Assembly (NCBI GenBank): GCA_035084275.1
Contig: CM068745.1
Span: 10,602,001-10,666,000 of the forward strand
Direction: 5' to 3'
Length of the DNA: 64,000 nt
From: Hydrolagus colliei
Lineage: Eukaryota
Shown: positions 1 to 52,688 of the stretch, piece after piece
How the letters are laid out: every line of letters begins with the position of its first letter
Numbering within the stretch: the stretch's first letter is position 1
The notes under the pieces: model-generated
Told to the model about the DNA's origin: nothing
Seen by the model: only the letters and a program-made list of their open reading frames with translations
The model's database searches: none
Position numbers and translations under genes: made by a program

Positions 1-4
1 TGAT

Positions 5-142
5 AGTAATAATAATAATAATAAAAATAATAATCCTTGCATTTGATATAGCGCTTTTCACAACTTATCGATGTCTCAACGCGCTTCACAGAATATACTG
101 TAAAGTGAATTGACTATACTTGTGGGTGAAACGCGGCTCCAA
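5..142 (-). mobile_element. 3' fragment of tRNA-derived/Deu-type SINE with L2-like tail
   Basis: Reverse complement reads GCCGCGTTTCACCCACAA...GTGAAGCGCGTTGAGACATC...GTGAAAAGCGCTATATCAAATGCAAGGA(TTA)n, the tail shared by many SINE copies in this window. Confidence 0.85.
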
Positions 143-611
143 ATGCTTCAAACACGGTTGCCCTGCAAAGCTTCACCCAAGTGACCCAATCAGTGAGTAT
201 CGTCAGCCTATTCAGTTGTGGAGGACATCACAGTTGAAGTCATCCTGATCTCACTCAAGGATGGCAATCAGGACCCCCAGCTGATATTTTTCTAGACAAG
301 AGGATGCTGAAGTGGTGCAAATGTGGCATCCATGTGTAGAATTTAACATAAAAAGCAGATTAAACATGAGCCTGTATGGATAATATTACCAACTGAATAA
401 CTGTGCAGACAGTTCCTTAAACAACACAATGAATCTCCACTGATGATTTTGTGGGAAAGGGAGTCAAACGTTTCCAGGTGAGAAAAGAAAAATGAAGAAA
501 CAAATGCAACATCGCATGCTATTCAAAGACCTACTTCTTCCTCCCTGTAGTATTTATTGCCAAGTAGGCCCTGGTCATTCTCACAGCTGCTAGTGACTAT
601 TCTTTTGCATT
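143..611. repeat. ~470-bp inverted duplicate of 33543-34018
   Basis: By-eye alignment to the reverse complement of 33543-34018, e.g. CCCTGCAAAGCTTCACCCAAGTGACCC and GGATGGCAATCAGGACCCCCAGCTGATATTTTTCTAG; roughly 93-95% identical with a 6-bp indel. Confidence 0.93.
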
Positions 612-923
612 TTAATAATAATAATTGTTGCATTTGATATAGCGCTTTTCACATCTTCTAGATGTCTCAAAGCACTTCACAGAATATACATAAAGTGAAT
701 TGACTGCATATTTGTGGGTGAAACCCAGTAGCCAATTGCACGCAGCAGTGTCCCACAAACAGTCATGGATTGAAAATGACCAAGTTCTTTTCATTATTAT
801 GTTTTTTTGGATGGATTATTATTAGGCATGTGGAGTAAGGAAACTTGCCCAAAATCAGCCTGGATTTGAACGCAGGTCTCACGGATGTAAGGCAATCCTC
901 TAACCACTGAGCTATGAGCTCCA
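612..923 (-). mobile_element. Full-length tRNA-headed SINE (chondrichthyan SINE2/DeuSINE type)
   Basis: Head with A-box (TAGCTCAGTGG) and B-box (GTTCAAATCC), body CTGTTTGTGGGACACTGCTG, L2-like tail with (TTA)n. Confidence 0.88.
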
Positions 924-1108
924 TGATCATAATGGGAGTAGTTCAGTGGTTAGCACACTTGCCTGTGGTCTGAACCCACTTTTCCTGTAAAATGAAAATT
1001 TGTAAGAATAAAAACACCAGCCTTAATTGTGAGATTCACAAATATCGAATCTGGAACTATGATAATGACCTCAGTGAGATCCAAACTCATTCCTTTAGTC
1101 CGTGATTG

Positions 1109-1987: not shown

Positions 1988-2103
1988 AGCGAGAGAAGAA
2001 TGATCACATCCCCACAGCAGTCTTCAAAGTACTGCAGTTGGAAAGTGAAATGGGAAATGAACTGAAGTTCAATGACCCAATGTGGCCTAAGCAGTGGGAG
2101 CTG
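1988..2103 (+). CDS. Exon A of a proprotein convertase subtilisin/kexin (PCSK, S8B) gene; N-terminus of the catalytic domain (partial gene)
   Basis: Encodes (E)REKNDHIPTAVFKVLQLESEMGNELKFNDPMWPKQWEL, with the convertase FNDPxW/FPxQWxL motif. Ends at donor CTG|GTAAGC (2104), phase 0, where furin/PCSK1/PCSK2 also have an intron. The 5' boundary is uncertain: TTTCCAG|1988 preferred, alternatives 1990 or 1950. Confidence 0.85.
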
Positions 2104-5522: not shown

Positions 5523-5860
5523 TAGAATCATAGAATCATAGAATTTTACGGCACAAAAGGAAGCCATTCGGCCCATCTAGTCTGTGCCGGCTCTTTGAAA
5601 AGAGCGATTCAATCCCACTGCCCTGCCCGCTCCCCATAGCCTAATAGACCCGTTCTCCCTAAATAAAGATCTAATTCCCTTTTAAAAGTTGTTATCGAAT
5701 CAGCCTCCACCACCTTTTCAGGCAATGCATTCCAGATTCGAACAACTCGCTGAGTGAAAAAATTTCTCCTCAGCTCCCCTCTACTGCGCCTTGAAACTAT
5801 TTTAAATCTGTGACCACGAGTCACAGATTCACCCACGAGTGGAAATAGTTTTTCTCTATT
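5523..5860 (-). mobile_element. Young CR1 LINE 3' end (ORF2 C-terminus + 3' UTR)
   Basis: Minus ORF TRGHRFK...RRNFFTQRVVRIWNALP...FKRELD is the typical CR1 ORF2 C-terminus; ends in GATGGGCCGAATGGC...(ATTCTATG)n. Confidence 0.93.
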
Positions 5861-17192: not shown

Positions 17193-17301
17193 TACAACAA
17201 CGGTCAGACCAGCGGACCAAAGCGATTTGACCTCAATGTGATGCCAGCTTGGCAGAGACACATAACTGGCTCTGGTGTAGTTGTGACAGTCGTAGATGAT
17301 G
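17193..17301 (+). CDS. Exon B (109 nt) of the PCSK gene, containing the catalytic Asp (VVDDG)
   Basis: Acceptor TTTTCCTTTGCAG|TAC, donor GATG|GTGAGT. Translates YNNGQTSGPKRFDLNVMPAWQRHITGSGVVVTVVDD(G), matching the kexin-family DLNVxxAWxxxxTGxGVxVxxxDDG motif. Catalytic Asp codon at 17295-17297. In frame with exons A and C. Confidence 0.95.
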
Positions 17302-18429: not shown

Positions 18430-19103
18430 AGGGCTCTGTAAAGTATCTGCAATGCATCCGCCCTTCAGATTAGATGTTTGCCTGTTCTGGTGGTTGATAA
18501 AGATCCCTTGGTATTTCTTGAATAGACAGAGAATGTCTCCTGGCCAATAATCCCCAGATAAATTAATTTGTTGTTGACTTCATCGCTGTTTGTGGGACAC
18601 TGCTGTGCACAAATTAGCTGTTGTATTCTCCAACAAATACACCATTACTTCACAGGGAAAATCCTCTGAAGTGCTTTGAGATGTGTTGATGATGTGATCA
18701 TGCATTGTATCAAATGTAAGAATGAATTATTATTTTGCAGAGTCCTGTAGCTTAGTGGTTAGATCACTTGCCTCTTAAGCGAGGGAACTTGGGTTCGATT
18801 CCCAGGATGAAACAATGGGCATGTTTCCTTACTCCACACATCTCTGTTTACCTATAAATAAATAGGAAACTGGTTGTTACTCAATTGGAAGATCGCTTTT
18901 CCAGGGATATTAATCCCTTCAAAAAATAATTAAAAATAAACAATAACAATGATTTGGTCACTCAATCCACCACTGTTTGTGGGACACTGCTGTGCGCAAT
19001 TGGCTGCCATGTTTCGCCGACAAAACATACAGTATATCCCGTGAAGCGCATTGAGTCTTCTAGAAGATGTGATAATGCTCCATATCAAATGCAAGAATTA
19101 TTA
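18430..19103 (+). mobile_element. Old DeuSINE (~18430-18733) followed by a younger tRNA-headed SINE (~18738-19103)
   Basis: Deu core and tail, then GAGTCCTGTAGCTTAGTGGTTAG...GGGTTCGATTCCC head and a second tail. Confidence 0.8.
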
Positions 19104-19135
19104 GTACAGTATTATCCAGACAGCCACTGGGACAT

Positions 19136-19308
19136 ACAACTTTTAAAAGGGAATTAGATCTTTATTTAGGGAGAACGGGTCTATTAGGCTATGGGGAGCG
19201 GGCAGGGCAGTGGGATTGAATCGCTCTTTTCAAAGAGCCGGCACAGACTAGATGGGCCGAATGGCCTCCTTTTGTGCCGTAAAATTCTATGATTCTATGA
19301 TTCTATGA
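19136..19308 (+). mobile_element. Young CR1 3' end, inverted and near-identical to 5523-5692
   Basis: GGCTATGGGGAGCGGGCAGGGCAGTGGGATTGAATCGCTC...GATGGGCCGAATGGCCTCC...(ATTCTATG)3. Confidence 0.93.
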
Positions 19309-24086: not shown

Positions 24087-24657
24087 TGTTTCCTGTAGCT
24101 CAGTGGTTAGAGCACTCACCTTACAAGCGTGAGACCTGTGTTCAAATCCAGGCAGATCAGAGGGAAACCTTGGGCAAGTTTCCTTACTCCACACGCCTAA
24201 TAGTTCGTCAAAAAAACCCACAATAATAAAAGTTGGTCATTTCAATCCATGACTGTTTGTGGGACACTGCTGTGCGCTATTGGCTGTTGTGTTTCACCCA
24301 CAAATATACAGTCAATTCATTTTACAGTATATTCTGTGAAGTGCTTTGAGACGTCGATCAGATGTGAAAAGCTCTATATCAAATGCAAGAATTTTTATTA
24401 TTAGTACTGTAACATTCTGACCTACAGTAAACATAACACCTTTTTTTAATTACATGACTAATGTACAACAAGAACACTGTAGTTTTTACAAGCAAACTTT
24501 AGTTCCTCTGTTGTAATAACTAGGCTGCTGTGTTTCGCCCACAAATATACAATCAATTCACTTTATAGTGTATACTGTGAAGCACTCTGAGACGTTGATA
24601 AGATGTGAAAAGCGCTATATCAAATGCATGGATTATTACATTATTATATTATTATTA
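24087..24657 (+). mobile_element. Composite: full SINE (24087-24403) + 119-bp copied flank (24405-24523) + SINE 3' part (24523-24657)
   Basis: SINE consensus on both sides; the middle matches 52571-52688 directly. Confidence 0.88.
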
Positions 24658-33130: not shown

Positions 33131-33543
33131 TGTGGAGTCCTGTAGTAAAGTGGTTAGAGCACTCGCCTTCAAAGCATGAGACCTGTGTTTCGAATCCAGG
33201 CAGATCAGGGCGAAACCTTGGGTAAGTTTCCTTACTCTACATGACTAATAATAATCCGTCCAAAAACTATAATAAATTGATCATTTCCATCCACGACTGT
33301 TTGTGGGACACGGCTGTGTGCAATTGGCTGCTGCATTTCACCGACAAATATAGTCAATTTTCCCACTTTTCTTCATCCTGCCCCGACCCCTCCCCCACTG
33401 CTCTTGTCCCTACCTAATTGTACAGCGCCTTGGGACGTCCTTTCGATGTGAAAGGTGCTATATAAATGTAAGTTTTGATTGCTTGCTTGGTCGGTCAGTC
33501 GGTCGGTCGATTGATATCAAATGCAAGGATTGTTATTATTATA
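33131..33543 (+). mobile_element. tRNA-headed SINE interrupted by an L2 3' end (~33360-33510)
   Basis: SINE head and body to ~33360, L2 tail CAGCGCCTTGGGACGTCC...GAAAGGTGCTATATAAATG, then SINE end ATATCAAATGCAAGGATTG(TTA)n. Confidence 0.85.
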
Positions 33544-34018
33544 ATGCAAAAGAACAGTCACTTAGCAGCTGTAAAAATGACCTGGGACTGGTTGGCAATA
33601 AATACTACAGGGAGGAAGAAGTAGGTCTTTGAATAGCATGCAATATTGCATTTGTTTCTTCATTTTTCTTTTCTCTCCTGGAAACGTTTGACTCCCTTTC
33701 CCACAAAATCATCAGTGGAGTTGCATTGTGTTGTTTAAGGAACTGTCTGCACAGTTATTCAGTTGGTAATATTAAAGTGATCCATACAGGCCCATGTTTA
33801 ATCTGCTTTTTATGTTAAATTCTACATATGGATGCCATATTTGCACCACTTCAGCATCCTCTAGGCTAGAAAAATATCAGCTGGGGGTCCTGATTGCCAT
33901 CCTTGAGTGAGATCAGGATGAATTCAACTGTGATGTCCTCCACAACTGAATAGGCTGACGATACTCACTGTTGGGGTCACTTGGGTGAAGCTTTGCAGGG
34001 CAACCATATTTGAAGCAT
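33543..34018. repeat. Probable source copy of the ~470-bp inverted duplication (partner 143-611)
   Basis: Reverse-complement match to 143-611; lies immediately 3' of a SINE tail. Confidence 0.93.
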
Positions 34019-37000
34019 GTTAATCAGTGACCGAGCACAAAAATCAGTAGAAAAGTTGAAGGGAAGTCACAGTGGCTGTGTCCCATTAATTTTGCAGATA
34101 ACAGAAATTAAACCCAACTTCCACGCATCAATCAGAAGTGATACCATGGAGCTTCTTTGATTGCACTAGATGTTGTCTCTAGGCTTTCTAAGGTCAGAAG
34201 ATTGCAAATTCAAGTGTGCTGAGTTATTTAATCTAAGCTGGAACAACAATTGGATTACATTTGGCTGCAATATCTCTGTTTAATACAGGAGATATTGGGC
34301 ATTAGTGGGCATTAAATCTTAAAAGCACAGTTGAAGTTCCCTCCAGAAGCTGGAAATGCAGTACAAGGACACCTGTGTTAAAAGCAAACCCTAAAGAGGT
34401 ACTTAAGAGATGGCAGTATCTCCTGGTGTCCTGCCAATACATCCCCTAAATAAAAATTGGTCACTCACTTTATGGCTGTTTGTGGGAACGTGTTCTGTGT
34501 AAATGGTTGCTGTGTTTCACCCATGAAATGCACTTTATAATAAGATATTTAATTATGGTCTGGACTGATAACACAGATCAAGTCCATAGTGACTATACAG
34601 TACAACACAGCCTGTGAAGCTCTTTGAGATGCCTCAGCGATGTGATAATGCTCTATATCAAATGTAAGGATTATTATTATGACAAAGGGCATGGAAAAAT
34701 CAGCTTGGGTTCTTACTCTTGATTGCTATCTGGGGACGACTGTTGAAACAGTACTGTTTGGTTGAGGCGGGAATTGGCTCAGGTGTTATATATACAGTAC
34801 TTCTAAGATAAGTCTGGGCTCATGTATGATGCATGGTCAATTGGGTGAGGCAGTGGAGGGCAGGTAGCACTCTTGGAACAGGATCACTGAATAGAGAAAT
34901 AGGGGGAAAATAGTTTAAAAAGGGTAAAATGACCAAGTGATCTTGCATGCAACACAACCGAGCTTCACACTGTCGGTTGGCAGGAAATGCCTCAGATGTG
35001 TTCAACATTAGCATGAAGCATAAAATCAAGCAGGGATTGCGTGATCCTGTCTCAGCTTTTAATGGGCGCATCCTTTAAGTGACCTGTCATTGCATTGTTG
35101 GAAACAAAAAAGGCGGCTGAAAGACATTCATTTGGCAACCTTTACAAAATATCTTTACAGCAACACTGGCCTTATTAACATGCAAGCACTTGCTTTAGGT
35201 TTTGGGCCATATAAAAAGTAATATACAGTGTCATCTTTGGAAGTGCTTTATTTGTATGGGATAATTAAGTTGGGGCCACTCATTTATCAGTACACGTTCA
35301 TTTGTTGAAAACAGTCACTTGTTATTAATTGATGTGATAGCAACACTGAGGTAAAATTAATGTGTGTTCAGCAGAGGTCAGACTGGCGGTAGTGGGTAGC
35401 TATCAAATAGAAAGACGTGAGATAAATAGTAGCTGTGGTACCACCATTGCATAAGAGATAACCAGGAAATATTAAGCAACACTATGGGTGATATCTATCT
35501 TTATTGGCAAGATTTTAAAAAATTAAACTCTGCATTATTGTTTAACTGGTGAACATCCATTATAAATATTAAAACATTTTATTGCATTATAACCTGCAGT
35601 GTCTGTTTATTCCTTGCCATTATTCTATTTGCAGAATTAATTTCTGGAATTTAGGTAACAGGTTTAAATTTTGGTCAGTAATTTTCTCTCTCACCCTTTG
35701 GCCTGCCGTAGATGTGCTAATCTTATTTGACTATGCCAAGCTGTTCTCTGTACCCTGTGAGTTGGTAATATACTCCCATCTCTCATTTAGGCAGGCAGCA
35801 GAGGTAAAGAATGCACCAGGGCAACACAGTCTGTCTGCCTTGAACAGACTGTAATGAATTGCGCTTTCAGCGGTAAGGCAGACAAATTTTTCTTTTAATC
35901 CAAGTCTGCCAACTAGGAATTTGGTCTCCACACCTGTTTAATAATGACCGTGAAAATAAATTTGTCTATGTACGTCTGTTTACGGGTCACTGCAGAAACA
36001 GGGAGTGTAGTGCATTTTGCAGACCTGATGTACATAATCAGGGTAATTGATATTTGGAGCAGCCAGTTTGCAGCAGCACAGGTTTGCTTCTCCCAGTGAG
36101 GCTATGATCTGTGTTATCAGTCCAGCCCATAATTAAATATCACTCTCTTACAATATGTTTCAGGTTCCTTAATGAGTTTGAACCAGAAGCAGTCACCTCT
36201 TTCCCCTTGGAGCTTTATTTGCTTGTTATTAAACAATATTATTGAGCTGACTGTATTCTCAATTGTGTCGCTGTTTCCATAATCACATATGATTTAAAGA
36301 ATACTCAGTTACTGGCAGACCTGCATTTTTACCTGAGGAAAGCCTTTTAAAGAAACAAAATAAAGGCATTTCAGCCCTTCCTAATTCCATTCGATTGCAA
36401 GATTTGCACCAAATGTAATGGGGAAGGTTTTTTTCATGGTTGTTTTTCCATCGCAAATTCCGCCCCTCCCTCCCCCCCCCCCCCCACCCATGCAGACTCC
36501 TGTGACTTTCAGCATGACCTTGTGCCGTGTTGTTAAGGGTCCAATTTGCTCATTGTTCCATGCTTGCATAATTCCCAAGCCCCTCACCCACCTCCCTACA
36601 CGCACTGACACGCGCGCACACATAGGCACACACATAGACGCAAACCTTAAACCTTCGGATCTGCTCATTTAAATTCTATGGGTAAGCGCTATCCATTTGA
36701 AGCTAGCAAGCTGTGTAGTTTTAGTAATTCCTTCTAACCACTTTGCACAGATTTCCCTCTCAACCTGCAATAAGCAGTGTATTAAGTTTGCTCTGAAAAA
36801 AAATCCTTTTGCATTCTGCCGTGTCACTTTTCCTCACAGGTTGCAGGCACACTGCAGATTGGCCCTTTTTTTTCGCATGCAGGTTGCCACGGTGAAGATT
36901 TACAATGCCAGTTATTCACACATCTGCCTTCCTTTTTTTCCTCCTCATTGTGAAATCCCCTGGGTGAAAGCAACCTTGATACCCAAACTCGTAAAATTCA

Positions 37001-45917: not shown

Positions 45918-46725
45918 AATAACAACAACAACAAAATTACATTTGTAGAGTGCTTTTCATGTGAAGAGGATGTCACAGGTGCTGAACAATCAGGGGTCAG
46001 GACCTGAGCATGGTGGGGGAGGGGGGTGGGCACAGTTTGGATGAGGTAGGCGAGGTAGGAGAGCGGTCGAAAAGGAGGATCTTCAGTCGGGCCTTGAAGG
46101 AGACAAGGGAGGGAACAAGGTGAAGGGATTGTGGGATGGAATTCCAGAGAGTAGGGGCCTGTCAAATGGATGGAGTGGATAGGTTAATAGGAGGTCAGCA
46201 GCTCAGGGAGATAAGAGATGGATAGACCATGGAGGTCCTTGAAAGTTTGGACGAGGATCTTGAATTCTATCCTCGGGGATGGGAGCCAATGGAGCCAGGT
46301 GAGGGTGGGGGTCATGGAGCCTGGTGCAGGAGAGGACAATGTAGTAAGGTAGGTAATAATAATCCTTGCACTGGATATAGCACCTTCTTATCATGTCTTT
46401 GAGACATCTCAAAGCGCTTCACAGAATATACCGTCAAGTGAAGTGACTGTATATTTTGTGGGCGATACGCGGCAGCCAATTGCACACAGTAGTGTCCAAC
46501 AAACAGTCGTGGATTGAGTGACAAAATTATTATTTTTATTGAAGGGATCATTACCCCTGGAAAAGTGATCCTTCATTGACTCACAAAGGGTTCCTACCTG
46601 CTGCTAGGTAAACAGAGGCATGTGGAGCAAGGAAACTTGCCCAATATTTCGCCCTGCCTGGGAATCAAACCGAGGTCCTCTCACTTGTGAGGGAGTGCTC
46701 TAACCATTACGCTACAGGGCTCCAC
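45918..46725 (-). mobile_element. L2 3' fragment (~45918-46345) plus full tRNA-headed SINE (~46354-46725)
   Basis: L2 antisense GGATCTTGAATTCTATCCTCGGGGATGGGAGCCAATGGAGCC; SINE head antisense GCTCTAACCATTACGCTACAGGGCTCCACA. Confidence 0.85.
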
Positions 46726-48159
46726 ATAATAATAATCATTGTATTTGATATACCTGTATTGCCTTCCATGCCACAAAAACATCTTAAAGTGCTTCACACA
46801 ATATACTGTAAAGTGCAGTCAGTATATGTGGCAGCCAATTTGTTGTAGCAAAGTTCCACAAGCAGCCATGAAGTGAACAACTAATTTTATTTCAGTGCAG
46901 ATTCAATCAAACTCCCAGGTACAGAACCTTTATGTGACAATGGTTAGATTGACTAACTGTTGAACAACAAAGAAACGGATTAAGTCAAATAGGACTAACA
47001 TTTATAATATATATGATTCAATGATCTAAAATTTGGAATGAATAATATATAGGTTTCAATGATAGAAGAGAATTCCCGAGGGGAGAGATAGATGTTCATG
47101 ATTACTCAACTGGCCACAGGATCTTTTTTTCATTACACCCAAACATTTCGTTTCACCTCGAACCCCAAGGCAGGCCCAGGGCGTCTCCCTTTAGAGTGCA
47201 GAGAATGAAAGGCATGGGGGCCACAGAGTTGGCTGTGCCCTGACCCATAGGGTCCCCCTGTCAATCATTTCCTACCCATCCCTGATCCCTTTCACACCAG
47301 ACAGCTGTCCCGATCGTTGTTAACCAGGTAACAACAACCCAACAATAGAGGCCTCAATGCCTGGTCTAGACACTCTTTTAGCCACTTATTTGCTGTTCTT
47401 GGCAGCTGTTGAAGCATAAATAAGCAGTTTGCAATCAGAAAGCTGACATCATTATAGCTCAGCTAAGAGAAATAATTGTGCCTATGCACTGAGCTGCTTT
47501 TCCCCCTATTTTATGACAACAGATTGGAGATGCAGATTGAACGGCCTGAACTGGCCTCTGCTTTTATTTAGCAGAATACAATTGGATAGGAAAAAAATCT
47601 TGTAGAGCCTGGAAGTTTCAGGAAACTCACTTCTGCTCATAGTTATATTTGAAACTAAATATTTAGTGAATGATTTGCTGGTGTGCTTTTCAGTGAGACT
47701 ATCACACAACCTTGTTTCAATATTAACCCTGCTTTTTAAGCATAGCCAGGATGAGCAGATAATTCCAATTGATTTTGATTTATTTCCAATTATTATTCAG
47801 CGCTGCTATGCAGATCACAAATGGAAGGGGCAGCCGAGGTTTTGTACATTGTTTTTGCCTTTGTCACAGAATGCATTTTTCACTGCAGGAGCCATATTGT
47901 TGTGTACAACTCAAACATTGTATTTTGATTTACTACATTAGAATATGACAGCATATTTTTTAAATCACATTTGAATTCCATTGTGGGAAAGAGTGAGTCG
48001 TTCTTGTTTTCTTTTATCATTTAAAAAAACCTTAATTCTACTGCATGCTTAGATCTAATTTGCAGATTGGGTTAACAGCAAATGTGCACAATGTGCATGT
48101 TAGGTTACCCATGTGTAAATACACACATGGGCTTGTATTGCTTACCCTGCACCTTATCC

Positions 48160-51087: not shown

Positions 51088-52464
51088 ATAGGGGTTCTAC
51101 CTGAGGAGAAATCCTGGGGGTTATTCCCGCTTAATGTAGCGCATTTGTTAAAATGGCCTAAGCATTCAACCATCCTTTGGATAAGACGGATACGAGGTGG
51201 ACATTAAAAATCCTATGGCAGTATTTGAAAAGATAAGAGAGATTCTCCCCTGTATCCTGGGTAACAATCCCCCAAATAAACTGGTCATTCATTTCATGGC
51301 TGTTTTTGGAATGTTGTTGTGAGTAAATTGGCTGCCAAGTTTGTTTATTAGGGCTTAGACACTGCATTGGATGAATTCTGTTTGCACTTCAAGACATTTC
51401 AACATTACCATAAGCTGCTATATCAAATGCAAGATTTATAAAACTATTATTCTATAATGTTCTATGATACAGTATACCTGGGGCATTATAGGCAAACTGT
51501 ATAGGCAATATGAGTATCAACTGGATAGATTTATATTAAAAAATGCATTCTGAATTCTATTAACTCCTTCATGTACAATCTCTTCAAACAGCACAATGCT
51601 CGAGGTTATGCTATGTCATCTCTAAATCTTTGGGGTTTTAATTACAGATAACATTGCACTTTTCAGTTGCAAAAAATATCTTGTCAGATTGTTTCAGTTC
51701 TCTTGTCTCTGGGTCAGAAGTTTGAGGGTTAGAAATCTCCAACCAAGCATTGAGTTCCTATTCTAGGCCAATACTCTTGTCCAGTGGATTGTAGATTGAA
51801 TAAACTAGTGTTTTCTGCCTGTCTTGTTGTTGAGGTGGGTACCAAACACCCCCAAAATACTATTTTGAAGCTGTTTTGAAGAAGTGTAGATTTTATTTAG
51901 TCATTTCATTCTTTCATGGGACTATACTGGCAAACATTAGCTGCACTATTTACATATATATAACAGACGTCATTGTGTTATATCGAATACAGATGTTGTT
52001 ATTGAGTGAAATTATTAAAGTCTAACATATGGTTTGAAATGAGAAAATTCTAAAATGTGGAGCAGAAATTACCGTACTCAGAAGCGGACACCCCACCACA
52101 ACATTGTTCTCAATACCATTGTCCACAAAGCCAGGTTGTGAATTTGATGGTTCACACGTCGTGCCATTGAAATGCTGGCAAGTGAGAGATTGCAACTTTT
52201 TACTAATGTTAAATCAGCTTTCCGGATAACCAGAAGTGGAAAGTAATGATCCGTACAAGACCCCATTCATGTGTCTGGCATAAGACCCATGCTGGGCACT
52301 CTTATTAAATCCAACCGAAAACAACAAAATTCACAGCAACAGTGGGTTTTTAAATTATGAAAGTTGCAGTGCAAAAAGTCATGAAGACCTGCGGCTCTGA
52401 ATGGGTTAAAACAACCTGTTCATCCCACTGATGAATCTGTTGACTGTCAACTTAGATACAGTAT

Positions 52465-52688
52465 TCTCCCACAAACTGTACAGTCAATTCACTTTACAGC
52501 ATATTCTGTGAAGCGCTTTGAGACGTCTAGAAAATGTGAAAAGCTCAAATGCAAGAATTTTTATTATTATTACTGCAATATTCTGACCTGCAGTAAACAT
52601 AACACAATTTTTAATTACATGACTAATGTACAACAAGAACACTGTAGCTTTTACAAGCAAACTTTAGTTGCTCTGTTGTAATAACTAG
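52465..52688 (+). repeat. 5'-truncated SINE tail (~52465-52570) plus unique flank (52571-52688) duplicated at 24405-24523
   Basis: ATTACATGACTAATGTACAACAAGAACACTGTAG...ACAAGCAAACTTTAGTT.CTCTGTTGTAATAACTAG occurs at both places. Confidence 0.9.

What the first reader, a model, noticed from the sequence alone, without database searches (positions are those of the whole stretch)
1..923. SINE-anchored local capture, event 1: a SINE carries ~470 bp copied, inverted, from 33 kb away and then restarts its own 3' end
Seen, reading the minus strand: full SINE (923-612), then ~470 bp matching the unique 3' flank of the SINE at 33131-33543 (partner 33543-34018, ~93-95% by eye), then an abrupt switch (...TGAAGCAT|TTGGAGCCGCGTTTCACCCAC) into a SINE 3' part starting at the CAATTGGCTGCCGCG motif. 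The partner continues into unrelated sequence, so it looks like the donor. Event 2 has the same architecture. Inference: a repeatable mechanism copies neighbouring intronic DNA into SINEs. Candidates are SINE-homology template switching during DNA repair (one-sided invasion/MMBIR), or an L2 reverse transcriptase jumping from SINE RNA onto a local template. Both donors are sense-oriented in the host intron, so nascent pre-mRNA is a possible template.
Basis: partly seen in the sequence, partly recalled or inferred. Interest (0 to 1): 0.7.

Follow-up and report, generated by a model that had tools for sequence, protein, structure and literature searches.

The report
SINE insertion patched with nearby DNA
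About 470 bases of intron DNA from 33 kb away sit as an inverted second copy between an old SINE and a piece of a younger SINE, likely left when the younger SINE inserted and repair patched its loose end with nearby DNA, a variant of a known way genomes duplicate local sequence.

Summary
The duplication is real: window 143-640 (-) matches 33514-34018 (+) at 472/505, and the unique part has two hits in the 1.0-Gb genome, both local. The SINE does not restart 'its own' 3' end: the 3' piece belongs to a younger subfamily (5/103 from its consensus) than the full SINE (11/104; head 16/150), and the two match at only 90/102. The full SINE is not donor-derived either; little more than the tail is shared. 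Best reading (0.5): a new 5'-truncated SINE was inserted by an L2-type enzyme at the older SINE's tail, and the free chromosome end likely invaded a nearby SINE tail, copied its flank and was joined to the new element. Rivals: reverse-transcriptase jump onto host pre-mRNA (0.17); pure break repair (0.2). Both donors are sense in a + strand convertase-like gene, but 22 of 35 tails in the window are + anyway, and one nearby capture is antisense. In 1.86 Mb, 2 of 70 triplets have a unique local donor; enrichment at truncated 5' ends is modest (3 of 23 without these events, p=0.05). A variant of known repair-mediated duplication and L2 5' extra sequence.

The parts
612..923 (-). Older full-length tRNA-headed SINE (acceptor); intermediate subfamily (T-type head, TAG-type 3' stem)
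   Evidence: nhmmer hit, model 21-348; head 16/150 and 3' part 11/104 from the nearest subfamily consensus; best match among 139 near-full-length hits in 1.86 Mb is 83.8%
612..640 (-). SINE tail shared with the donor: the likely homology anchor
   Evidence: alignment extends through it, 4 differences in 33 columns
143..611 (-). Captured copy of intronic DNA, inverted relative to the donor
   Evidence: 2 hits genome-wide; 22 substitutions in 469 aligned bases
9..142 (-). Younger 5'-truncated SINE (GAT-type 3' stem) with a long ATT tail; starts at model position about 214, after a 3-base microhomology (GCA) with the donor end
   Evidence: 5/103 from its subfamily consensus, about the 10th percentile of 48 copies; 90/102 to the first SINE; tail in the longest 9% of 210; junction read
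924..933 (-). 10-mer that matches 9/10 the bases just after the younger SINE's tail (just outside the window, L001 about 1344-1353): possible target duplication of the older SINE, weak
   Evidence: score 9; 4 of 68 full-length copies and 12 of 338 shuffled pairs reach it
33543..34018 (+). Donor segment: unique 3' flank of a SINE tail, in an intron
   Evidence: continues into unrelated unique sequence after 34018
33131..33542 (+). Donor SINE: head to about 33360, an L2-type 3' fragment replacing about 60 bases of the body, then the residual SINE tail 33514-33542
   Evidence: sequence, alignments, model hit 15-323
24088..24657 (+). Event 2 acceptor: young full SINE (24088-24412), captured 111 bases (24413-24523), 5'-truncated GAT-type SINE (24524-24657)
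52463..52688 (+). Event 2 donor: TAG-type SINE 3' part and its flank
   Evidence: flank 6 substitutions in 110
34544..34580 (+). 37-base capture inside an old SINE; donor 36105-36141 on the minus strand, antisense to the host gene
1990..2103 (+). Likely exon of the host gene, a kexin/proprotein-convertase-like protease gene on the + strand
   Evidence: splice signals and motif (motif recalled; no Pfam or PDB hit for this exon alone); Peptidase_S8 and P-domain hits downstream at window 66.5, 83.6 and 193 kb
17235..17300 (+). Likely exon with the catalytic-aspartate motif of the same gene; both donors lie in the intron after it (approximate ends)
   Evidence: motif at 17289; next motif-bearing exon found is at 66506

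Best explanation
A 470-base copy of intronic DNA from 33 kb away lies between an older SINE and a younger 5'-truncated SINE, and it likely arose when the younger SINE was inserted at the older one's tail and the break was closed with a repair patch copied from the flank of a nearby SINE tail. Steps: (1) shown: the two SINE parts are different copies of different age, and the patch is two-copy and local. (2) inferred: an L2-type reverse transcriptase primed at the older SINE's ATT tail and copied about 135 bases of SINE RNA. (3) inferred: the other chromosome end, finishing in SINE tail sequence, invaded the similar tail at 33514-33542 and was extended by about 470 bases through its flank (SDSA-like). 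(4) inferred: the extended end was joined to the truncated cDNA at a 3-base microhomology. No function is claimed; it is most likely a neutral scar.
For: 3' piece is a separate, young copy: GAT subfamily, 5/103 from consensus, against 11/104 and 16/150 for the first SINE, which fits the older T-head/TAG class (median 10%) and not the T-head/GAT class (median 6.1%). Its divergence is of the size expected from the 4.7% patch-donor difference (inference). It is 5'-truncated with an intact, long tail (longest 9%; event 2 longest 13%). Both events' 3' pieces are GAT type, which is 50 of 286 typed copies. In event 2 the switch to donor letters falls in the last 45 bases of the first SINE. No source copy for the first SINE: a private 25-mer has one hit genome-wide at up to 1 mismatch (about two-thirds power, my estimate). 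In 1.86 Mb, local low-copy duplications abut 5' ends of truncated SINE/L2 pieces more than expected: 4 of 25 against 0.92 (p=0.012), full-length heads 0 of 26, tails 3 of 26 against 1.59. By eye four such captures have no same-strand tail upstream, so capture follows the truncated element, not the anchor. 5' ends directly behind a same-strand tail: 16 of 755 against 4-10 in control windows. Literature: L2-clade inserts often carry 5' extra sequence templated from flanking DNA (PMC4245944, PMC4760211, passages/parts read); L1 inserts with sequence templated from DNA near the site (PMC11702581, passages).
Against: The enrichment is weak once the two prompting events and one dispersed element are dropped: 3 of 23 against 0.84, p=0.05. 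The flank-based test did not separate 5'-truncated flanks from 3' flanks (4 of 220 against 5 of 391 within 100 kb, p=0.73). Most local duplications in the region have no flagged SINE/L2 end, so capture also happens without insertion. The head-to-head control for nesting gave 10, not far below 16. In event 2 the first SINE's head (9/161) is as young as the 3' piece (10/105), so a one-step event is not excluded there. This family shows no regular target duplications, so that hallmark of insertion cannot be used. The pre-event state was not recovered: the outgroup differs near the site. Nothing here shows which polymerase made the patch. Published L2 extra sequence is described as several nucleotides from the flank, not 470 bases from 33 kb.
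Confidence: 0.5

Rival explanations
1. Pure DNA break repair with several templates: a break at the old SINE's tail is repaired by copying the donor flank, then a third SINE copy entered by microhomology, then rejoining by tail homology. No new retrotransposition.
For: Local templated duplications without any flagged SINE/L2 end are common here: 26 local pairs in 1.86 Mb, 17 under 3 kb, 12 inverted, including an identical 107-base one and a 37-base antisense capture inside an old SINE. Two-donor repair duplications are described in PMC2671141 (20 cases; part 2 read).
Against: Needs three templates. Both 3' pieces come from the young minority subfamily, with long tails and no flank of their own. 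No source copy above 93.2% (event 1) or 91.5% (event 2) in 1.86 Mb, levels that unrelated young copies reach; only 0.2% of the genome was searched for it.
Confidence: 0.2
2. Reverse-transcriptase jump onto host pre-mRNA: the L2 enzyme leaves the SINE RNA near position 214, continues on nascent intron RNA, reaches the donor's tail and anneals there to the older SINE (or, in event 2, switches to another SINE RNA in one step).
For: Both donors are sense in the + strand gene and within it; patch and 3' piece are in the same direction, as a jump requires; both restart within 3-4 bases of each other, a zone holding 13 of 150 truncated GAT-typed hits (loose typing). A capture probably inside the next + strand gene is also sense. 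Double template jumps are reported (PMC2104539, abstract); L1-RNA chimeras (PMC13174262, passages).
Against: 22 of 35 tails in the window are +, so two sense donors have a chance of about 0.4 under a DNA model. The capture at 34544-34580 is antisense. A jump has no reason to land just behind a SINE tail twice, whereas a DNA end finishing in a tail does. No spliced junction in any patch was seen or tested.
Confidence: 0.17
3. One reading: one SINE broke near position 214, its 5' part invaded the donor SINE, copied its 3' part and flank, and returned to its own 3' end.
For: Explains the layout with one break; the composite is bounded by a 9/10 repeat. In event 1 most of the donor's 3' body is lost, so the test there rests on 69 bases.
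Against: First SINE's head (10.7%) and 3' piece (4.9%) differ in age and subfamily. First SINE differs from the donor at 8 of 69 bases plus an indel (p=0.015). In event 2 it keeps GAT letters where the donor has TAG, and the two parts match 90/105 (p=0.0006 against flank divergence).
Confidence: 0.06
4. Two unrelated events: a repair duplication at the old SINE's tail, and later a SINE inserting by chance at its far breakpoint.
For: SINE/L2 pieces are dense (1102 model hits in 1.86 Mb); the window was picked for showing this pattern.
Against: The junction is exact to the base in both events; about 0.04 such contacts are expected per duplication even with a 50-base tolerance.
Confidence: 0.05
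5. Assembly artefact or ordinary dispersed composite repeat.
For: One look-alike in the region proved to be a dispersed element. No listed contig spans the whole locus.
Against: Copies differ by 4.7%; two hits only; a second sample of the same organism from another study holds 0.87 of the words of 1-1500, above the 0.73 ceiling if the copy were absent.
Confidence: 0.02

Closest known systems
[quoted passage not shown] 2009, PMC2671141; parts 1-3 of 8 and passages read)
   Same: Two-copy, same-chromosome capture of 50-620 bases next to or inside a transposon; microhomology at a junction; reported across vertebrates. Most of the 26 local pairs found here fit this class.
   Different: Their set is defined by one element split in two with consensus positions within 30 bases and donor within 5 kb. 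Here the two parts are different copies overlapping by about 120 model positions, the donor is 33 kb away, and one end is anchored on a homologous tail.
5' extra nucleotides of L2-clade LINE inserts, 'annealing' pathway (PMC4245944 passages; PMC4760211 parts 1-2 of 4; PMC2666801 passages)
   Same: 5'-truncated insert of an L2-tailed element with templated host sequence at its 5' junction.
   Different: Described as several nucleotides from flanking DNA or the LINE; here 111-470 bases from 28-33 kb, starting at another SINE's tail.
L1 insertions with sequence templated from DNA near the site (PMC11702581, passages; the supplementary figure with the cases was not seen)
   Same: Templated genomic patch attributed to processing of the reciprocal DNA end before joining to the reverse-transcribed end.
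   Different: Human L1 in cultured cells, three cases; here fixed-looking germline events of an L2-type SINE.
Duplication-dependent strand annealing (Fiston-Lavier 2007, seen only as described in PMC3276153 passages)
   Same: A break in a repeat is repaired from an ectopic copy of the repeat, duplicating its flank.
   Different: That model has no new retroelement at the far junction; here one is present in both events.
Tripartite chimeric retrocopies from double template jumps (PMC2104539, abstract) and L1-RNA chimeras (PMC13174262, passages)
   Same: Three parts in one direction ending in a retroelement tail.
   Different: Those parts are copies of abundant RNAs inserted in one step with clear target duplications; here the first SINE of event 1 looks resident and older, and the middle part is local intron.
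CmiSINEs (SINE2-1_CM, SINE2B-1_CM) of holocephalan fishes (PMC5499810, passages)
   Same: tRNA-Ala-like head (one search finds tRNA-Ala/Val-like genes at three SINE heads), two close subfamilies, 3' end shared with an L2-type element.
   Different: No sequence comparison with the published consensus was possible; the name is a lead, and the animal group is inferred.

Membership tests
Repair-mediated duplication (Pace 2009) | Inserted sequence found at exactly one other place in the genome | tested here: met
   2 hits
Repair-mediated duplication (Pace 2009) | Donor on the same chromosome within 5 kb | tested here: not met
   Same contig but 32.9 kb apart
Repair-mediated duplication (Pace 2009) | One element split in two, with abutting consensus positions | tested here: not met
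   Model 21-348 then 210-350, different subfamilies
Repair-mediated duplication (Pace 2009) | Microhomology, filler or deletion at junctions; empty site in an outgroup | tested here: inconclusive
   3-base microhomology at one end, tail homology at the other; outgroup site not resolved
L2-type insertion with templated 5' extra sequence | 5'-truncated element with intact 3' stem and repeat tail | tested here: met
   Model 210-350, long ATT tail
L2-type insertion with templated 5' extra sequence | Extra sequence at the 5' junction templated from host DNA | tested here: met
   Exact abutment and local donor
L2-type insertion with templated 5' extra sequence | Element and extra sequence arrived together | tested here: inconclusive
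   Ages agree roughly; pre-event state not seen
L2-type insertion with templated 5' extra sequence | Made by L2 reverse transcriptase and host repair | not testable with these tools
   Needs a cell assay
3' transduction / dispersed composite repeat | Source element and flank copied together; or many dispersed copies | tested here: not met
   Acceptor head 76% to donor head; 2 copies only
One-step tripartite retrocopy | All parts of equal age, with a source for the 5' part and flanking target duplication | tested here: not met
   Event 1: first SINE older, no source copy, duplication at chance level. Event 2 stays open
Pre-mRNA-templated capture | Donors biased to the sense strand of transcribed genes | tested here: inconclusive
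   2 sense and 1 antisense in this gene; prior 22 of 35
CmiSINE (SINE2-1_CM / SINE2B-1_CM) | tRNA-Ala-derived head | tested here: inconclusive
   ARAGORN Ala-like and 1 Val-like heads
CmiSINE (SINE2-1_CM / SINE2B-1_CM) | CORE domain and identity to the published consensus | not testable with these tools
   Figures and RepBase not held

The most novel reading that the evidence does not exclude
The L2 reverse transcriptase routinely jumps from SINE RNA onto the nascent transcript of the gene it is inserting into and uses SINE tails in that transcript to finish, giving an RNA-based route that copies intron DNA tens of kilobases within the same gene; such scars would record germline transcription and local contacts.
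Probability: 0.15. Interest if true: 0.7.

Novelty: new variant of a known kind. Interest (0 to 1): 0.36.

Why it matters
It links two described processes, templated 5' ends of L2-type inserts and repair-mediated local duplication, in one germline scar, at a length (470 bases) and distance (33 kb) beyond what the papers read here describe for L2 elements. If general, dense SINE tails would act as landing sites that shuffle intron DNA within large genes, and donor strand would give a direct test of DNA versus RNA templates. As it stands it is rare (2 of 70 triplets in 1.86 Mb), probably neutral, and close to known kinds. The tail-anchored form did not turn up in seven library searches, but that library lacks most subscription papers.

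Tried and rejected
Outgroup empty site: contigs of a relative about 10% diverged cover the captured stretch at single-copy-like depth, and its one listed contig there fits the donor, but depths are unreliable (a closer relative shows 113 on unique flank). In three samples of the distant relative the match stops 43 bases before the SINE head, with at least 255 other letters beyond that do not match the locus: inconclusive. No RNA holder was listed. Circular intermediate (donor 3' part plus flank, circularised and integrated): rejected for event 2, where the 3' piece starts upstream of the donor SINE's start and matches it 76/92; untestable for event 1. Target duplications: not a regular feature of this family. 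Pfam scans of window ORFs found no gene (25; 150 of 594); the gene came from family searches and motifs. The gene's 5' extent was not found, a homologue search with one exon gave nothing, and base skews were uninformative, so gene strand is unknown for most outside captures. The first flank test was swamped by old repeats and was tightened afterwards. The pair at window 351649/430537 was dropped as a dispersed element. Pairs at -683205, -652032, 877221 and 878677 look like parts of gene or segment duplications by eye but were left in the denominator. The automatic classifier missed event 2 and, by eye, three more 5'-junction captures (-224259, -185738, 816740); I do not quote a p-value for by-eye counts because the null is not matched. 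One search queried the wrong stretch and is void; it was repeated. RNA folding puts the restart in a small hairpin of a predicted stem; not tested against shuffles, not used. Earlier findings: none returned. No supplements were read; the supplementary figure of PMC11702581 may hold closer cases.

Full report
Setting. The window is G000:C6:10602001-10666000 in a 1.0-Gb genome. It is 39% GC and rich in a tRNA-headed SINE with an L2-type 3' stem and ATT tail. The family resembles the CmiSINEs described for holocephalan fishes (PMC5499810, passages), a lead I could not test by sequence. A + strand kexin/proprotein-convertase-like gene spans the window: motifs at 2074, 17289, 66506, 69813, 71123, 105148 and 185192 (motifs recalled), Peptidase_S8 hits at window 66.5 and 83.6 kb and a P-domain hit at 193 kb.

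The observation. Window 143-640 (-) aligns to 33514-34018 (+) at 472/505. Without the tail there are 22 substitutions in 469 aligned bases, 4.7%. The unique part has two hits genome-wide. The same search returns 333 candidates for a dispersed element and finds 91-93% partners of 150-base queries, so two hits is meaningful. An independent sample holds 0.87 of the words of 1-1500, above the 0.73 possible without the copy. Event 2 has the same layout, two hits and 5.5% divergence. At the donor the sequence runs on into unique DNA; at the acceptor it switches into SINE after a shared GCA. So the feature is real, local, and the acceptor is at 143-611.

Two SINEs, not one. Among 286 tail-bearing copies in 1.26 Mb, the 3' stem sorts into a younger GAT type (50; median 6.8% from consensus) and an older TAG type (146; 11.4%); 90 could not be typed. 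The 3' piece of event 1 is GAT, 5/103 from consensus. The full SINE is TAG, 11/104, with a head 16/150 from its consensus, typical of the T-head/TAG class. The two match 90/102, and eight unrelated copies match the 3' piece better; 12 differences in 102 are unlikely at the patch's divergence (p=0.003). In event 2 both parts are GAT but match 90/105 (p=0.0006). The SINE therefore does not restart its own end.

The anchor is the tail. The acceptor head is 76% like the donor head. Over the 69 bases where the first SINE's 3' part and the damaged donor SINE can be compared there are 8 substitutions and an indel (p=0.015). In event 2, where the donor is intact, the first SINE has its own GAT letters and takes donor letters only in the last 45 bases. 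A private 25-mer of the first SINE occurs once in the genome, and its best match in 1.86 Mb is 83.8%, so it looks resident rather than copied in.

How common. In 1.864 Mb around the window, 70 tail-gap-truncated-piece triplets were found; 3 had a partner for the gap, one with several distant partners, and two, events 1 and 2, with one local donor. A further tail-adjacent pair 44.6 kb apart is two-copy but its direction is unclear. Of 37 low-copy pairs, 26 are local; 5 abut the 5' end of a truncated SINE/L2 piece against 0.95 expected, 0 abut full-length heads against 0.37, and 3 abut tails against 1.59. One of the 5 is a dispersed element: 4 of 25, p=0.012; without events 1 and 2, 3 of 23, p=0.05. 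A flank-based test gave 4 of 220 truncated 5' flanks, 5 of 391 3' flanks, 0 of 95 full-length heads and 14 of 3000 controls within 100 kb, which is weak. By eye, captures at window -60142, 362709, -224259 and 816740 sit at truncated 5' ends with no same-strand tail upstream; one was checked genome-wide and is two-copy. Capture thus goes with truncated elements modestly, occurs without them often, and the tail-anchored long-range form is the rare case.

Strand. But 22 of 35 tail-bearing hits in the window are on +, so this has a chance near 0.4 under a DNA model, and the 37-base capture at 34544-34580 is antisense. A capture near the + strand ribosomal-protein-S9-domain exons at 375-377 kb is sense if it lies in that gene. 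The question is open.

Outgroup. Laying contigs of relatives did not give the pre-event state; see Tried and rejected.

Mechanism. Shown: two different SINE copies, a local two-copy patch, exact junctions, tail homology at one end and 3-base microhomology at the other. Inferred: a new SINE was primed at the old tail, reverse transcription stopped near position 214, the other chromosome end invaded a nearby tail and copied its flank, and the ends were joined. This explains the anchoring without coincidence, the youth and long tail of the 3' piece, and the class of captures that lack an anchor. I give it 0.5. Pure multi-template repair (0.2) and a jump onto pre-mRNA (0.17) remain; the single-SINE break (0.06), independent events (0.05) and artefact (0.02) are unlikely.

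Comparison. It works like repair-mediated duplication (PMC2671141, parts 1-3 and passages) but fails two of that paper's criteria (one split element; donor within 5 kb). It fits the pattern of L2 inserts with templated 5' extra sequence (PMC4245944, PMC4760211, PMC2666801) and of L1 inserts with patches from nearby DNA (PMC11702581), at greater length and distance, with an entry step like duplication-dependent strand annealing (as described in PMC3276153). Tripartite retrocopies (PMC2104539, abstract only) fit event 2 better than event 1. A long-read L1 preprint (10.1101/2024.08.27.596794, passages) showed nothing closer. No supplements were read.

Verdict. Real, correctly located, partly misread; a new variant of a known kind, of moderate interest mainly because donor strand makes the DNA-versus-RNA question testable genome-wide.

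Noticed in passing
window 1990-2103, 17289 and G000:C6:10668494-10795527: A kexin/proprotein-convertase-like gene with very long introns (over 190 kb) lies on the + strand between a sodium/proton-exchanger gene and a GPCR/CNH/SH3 gene block; which convertase it is was not settled.
   Followed up: partly
window 33361-33513: An L2-type 3' fragment replaces about 60 bases in the body of the donor SINE, leaving its head and tail.
   Followed up: no
L060:5647-5892 region (window about -224514 to -224025): Two 5'-truncated elements point away from each other with two captured pieces between them, one from 1.1 kb (91%, two-copy genome-wide) and one from 22.6 kb (83%): looks like a break closed from both sides.
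   Followed up: partly
L079:6545-7630 and window coordinate 351649-352810: A dispersed, fairly young GC-rich element with a terminal hairpin and an L2-type tail; 333 candidates genome-wide, the listed ones 89-96% alike; not identified.
   Followed up: partly
window coordinates 231666-231772 and 233779-233885 (L039): An identical 107-base inverted duplication 2 kb apart that includes 30 bases of a SINE: a very young templated insertion, a good target for finding an empty allele.
   Followed up: no
window coordinates 553041-553190 and 597825-597974 (L111, L116): 150-base two-copy duplication 44.6 kb apart, behind an L2-type tail in one copy and a SINE tail in the other; a possible third tail-anchored event of unclear direction.
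   Followed up: partly
window 5523-5692 and 19136-19305: Two 170-base pieces 99.4% alike with a tandem tail of the CR1 type (label recalled): likely a recently active repeat.
   Followed up: no
window coordinates 877221-879112 and 897194-898148: Two 98% identical blocks (378 and 442 bases) about 19 kb away, closer together in one copy, one ending in a splice-donor-like site: young partial gene duplication or two-step capture.
   Followed up: no
window 18545-19110 and 46345-46895: Head-to-tail SINE pairs; in 1.86 Mb 16 of 755 pieces start directly behind a same-strand tail, about twice the control windows.
   Followed up: partly
window coordinate -35272 to -34879 (L019): An inverted copy of sequence about 260 bases upstream sits at the 3' end of a truncated SINE, in place of its ATT tail.
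   Followed up: no
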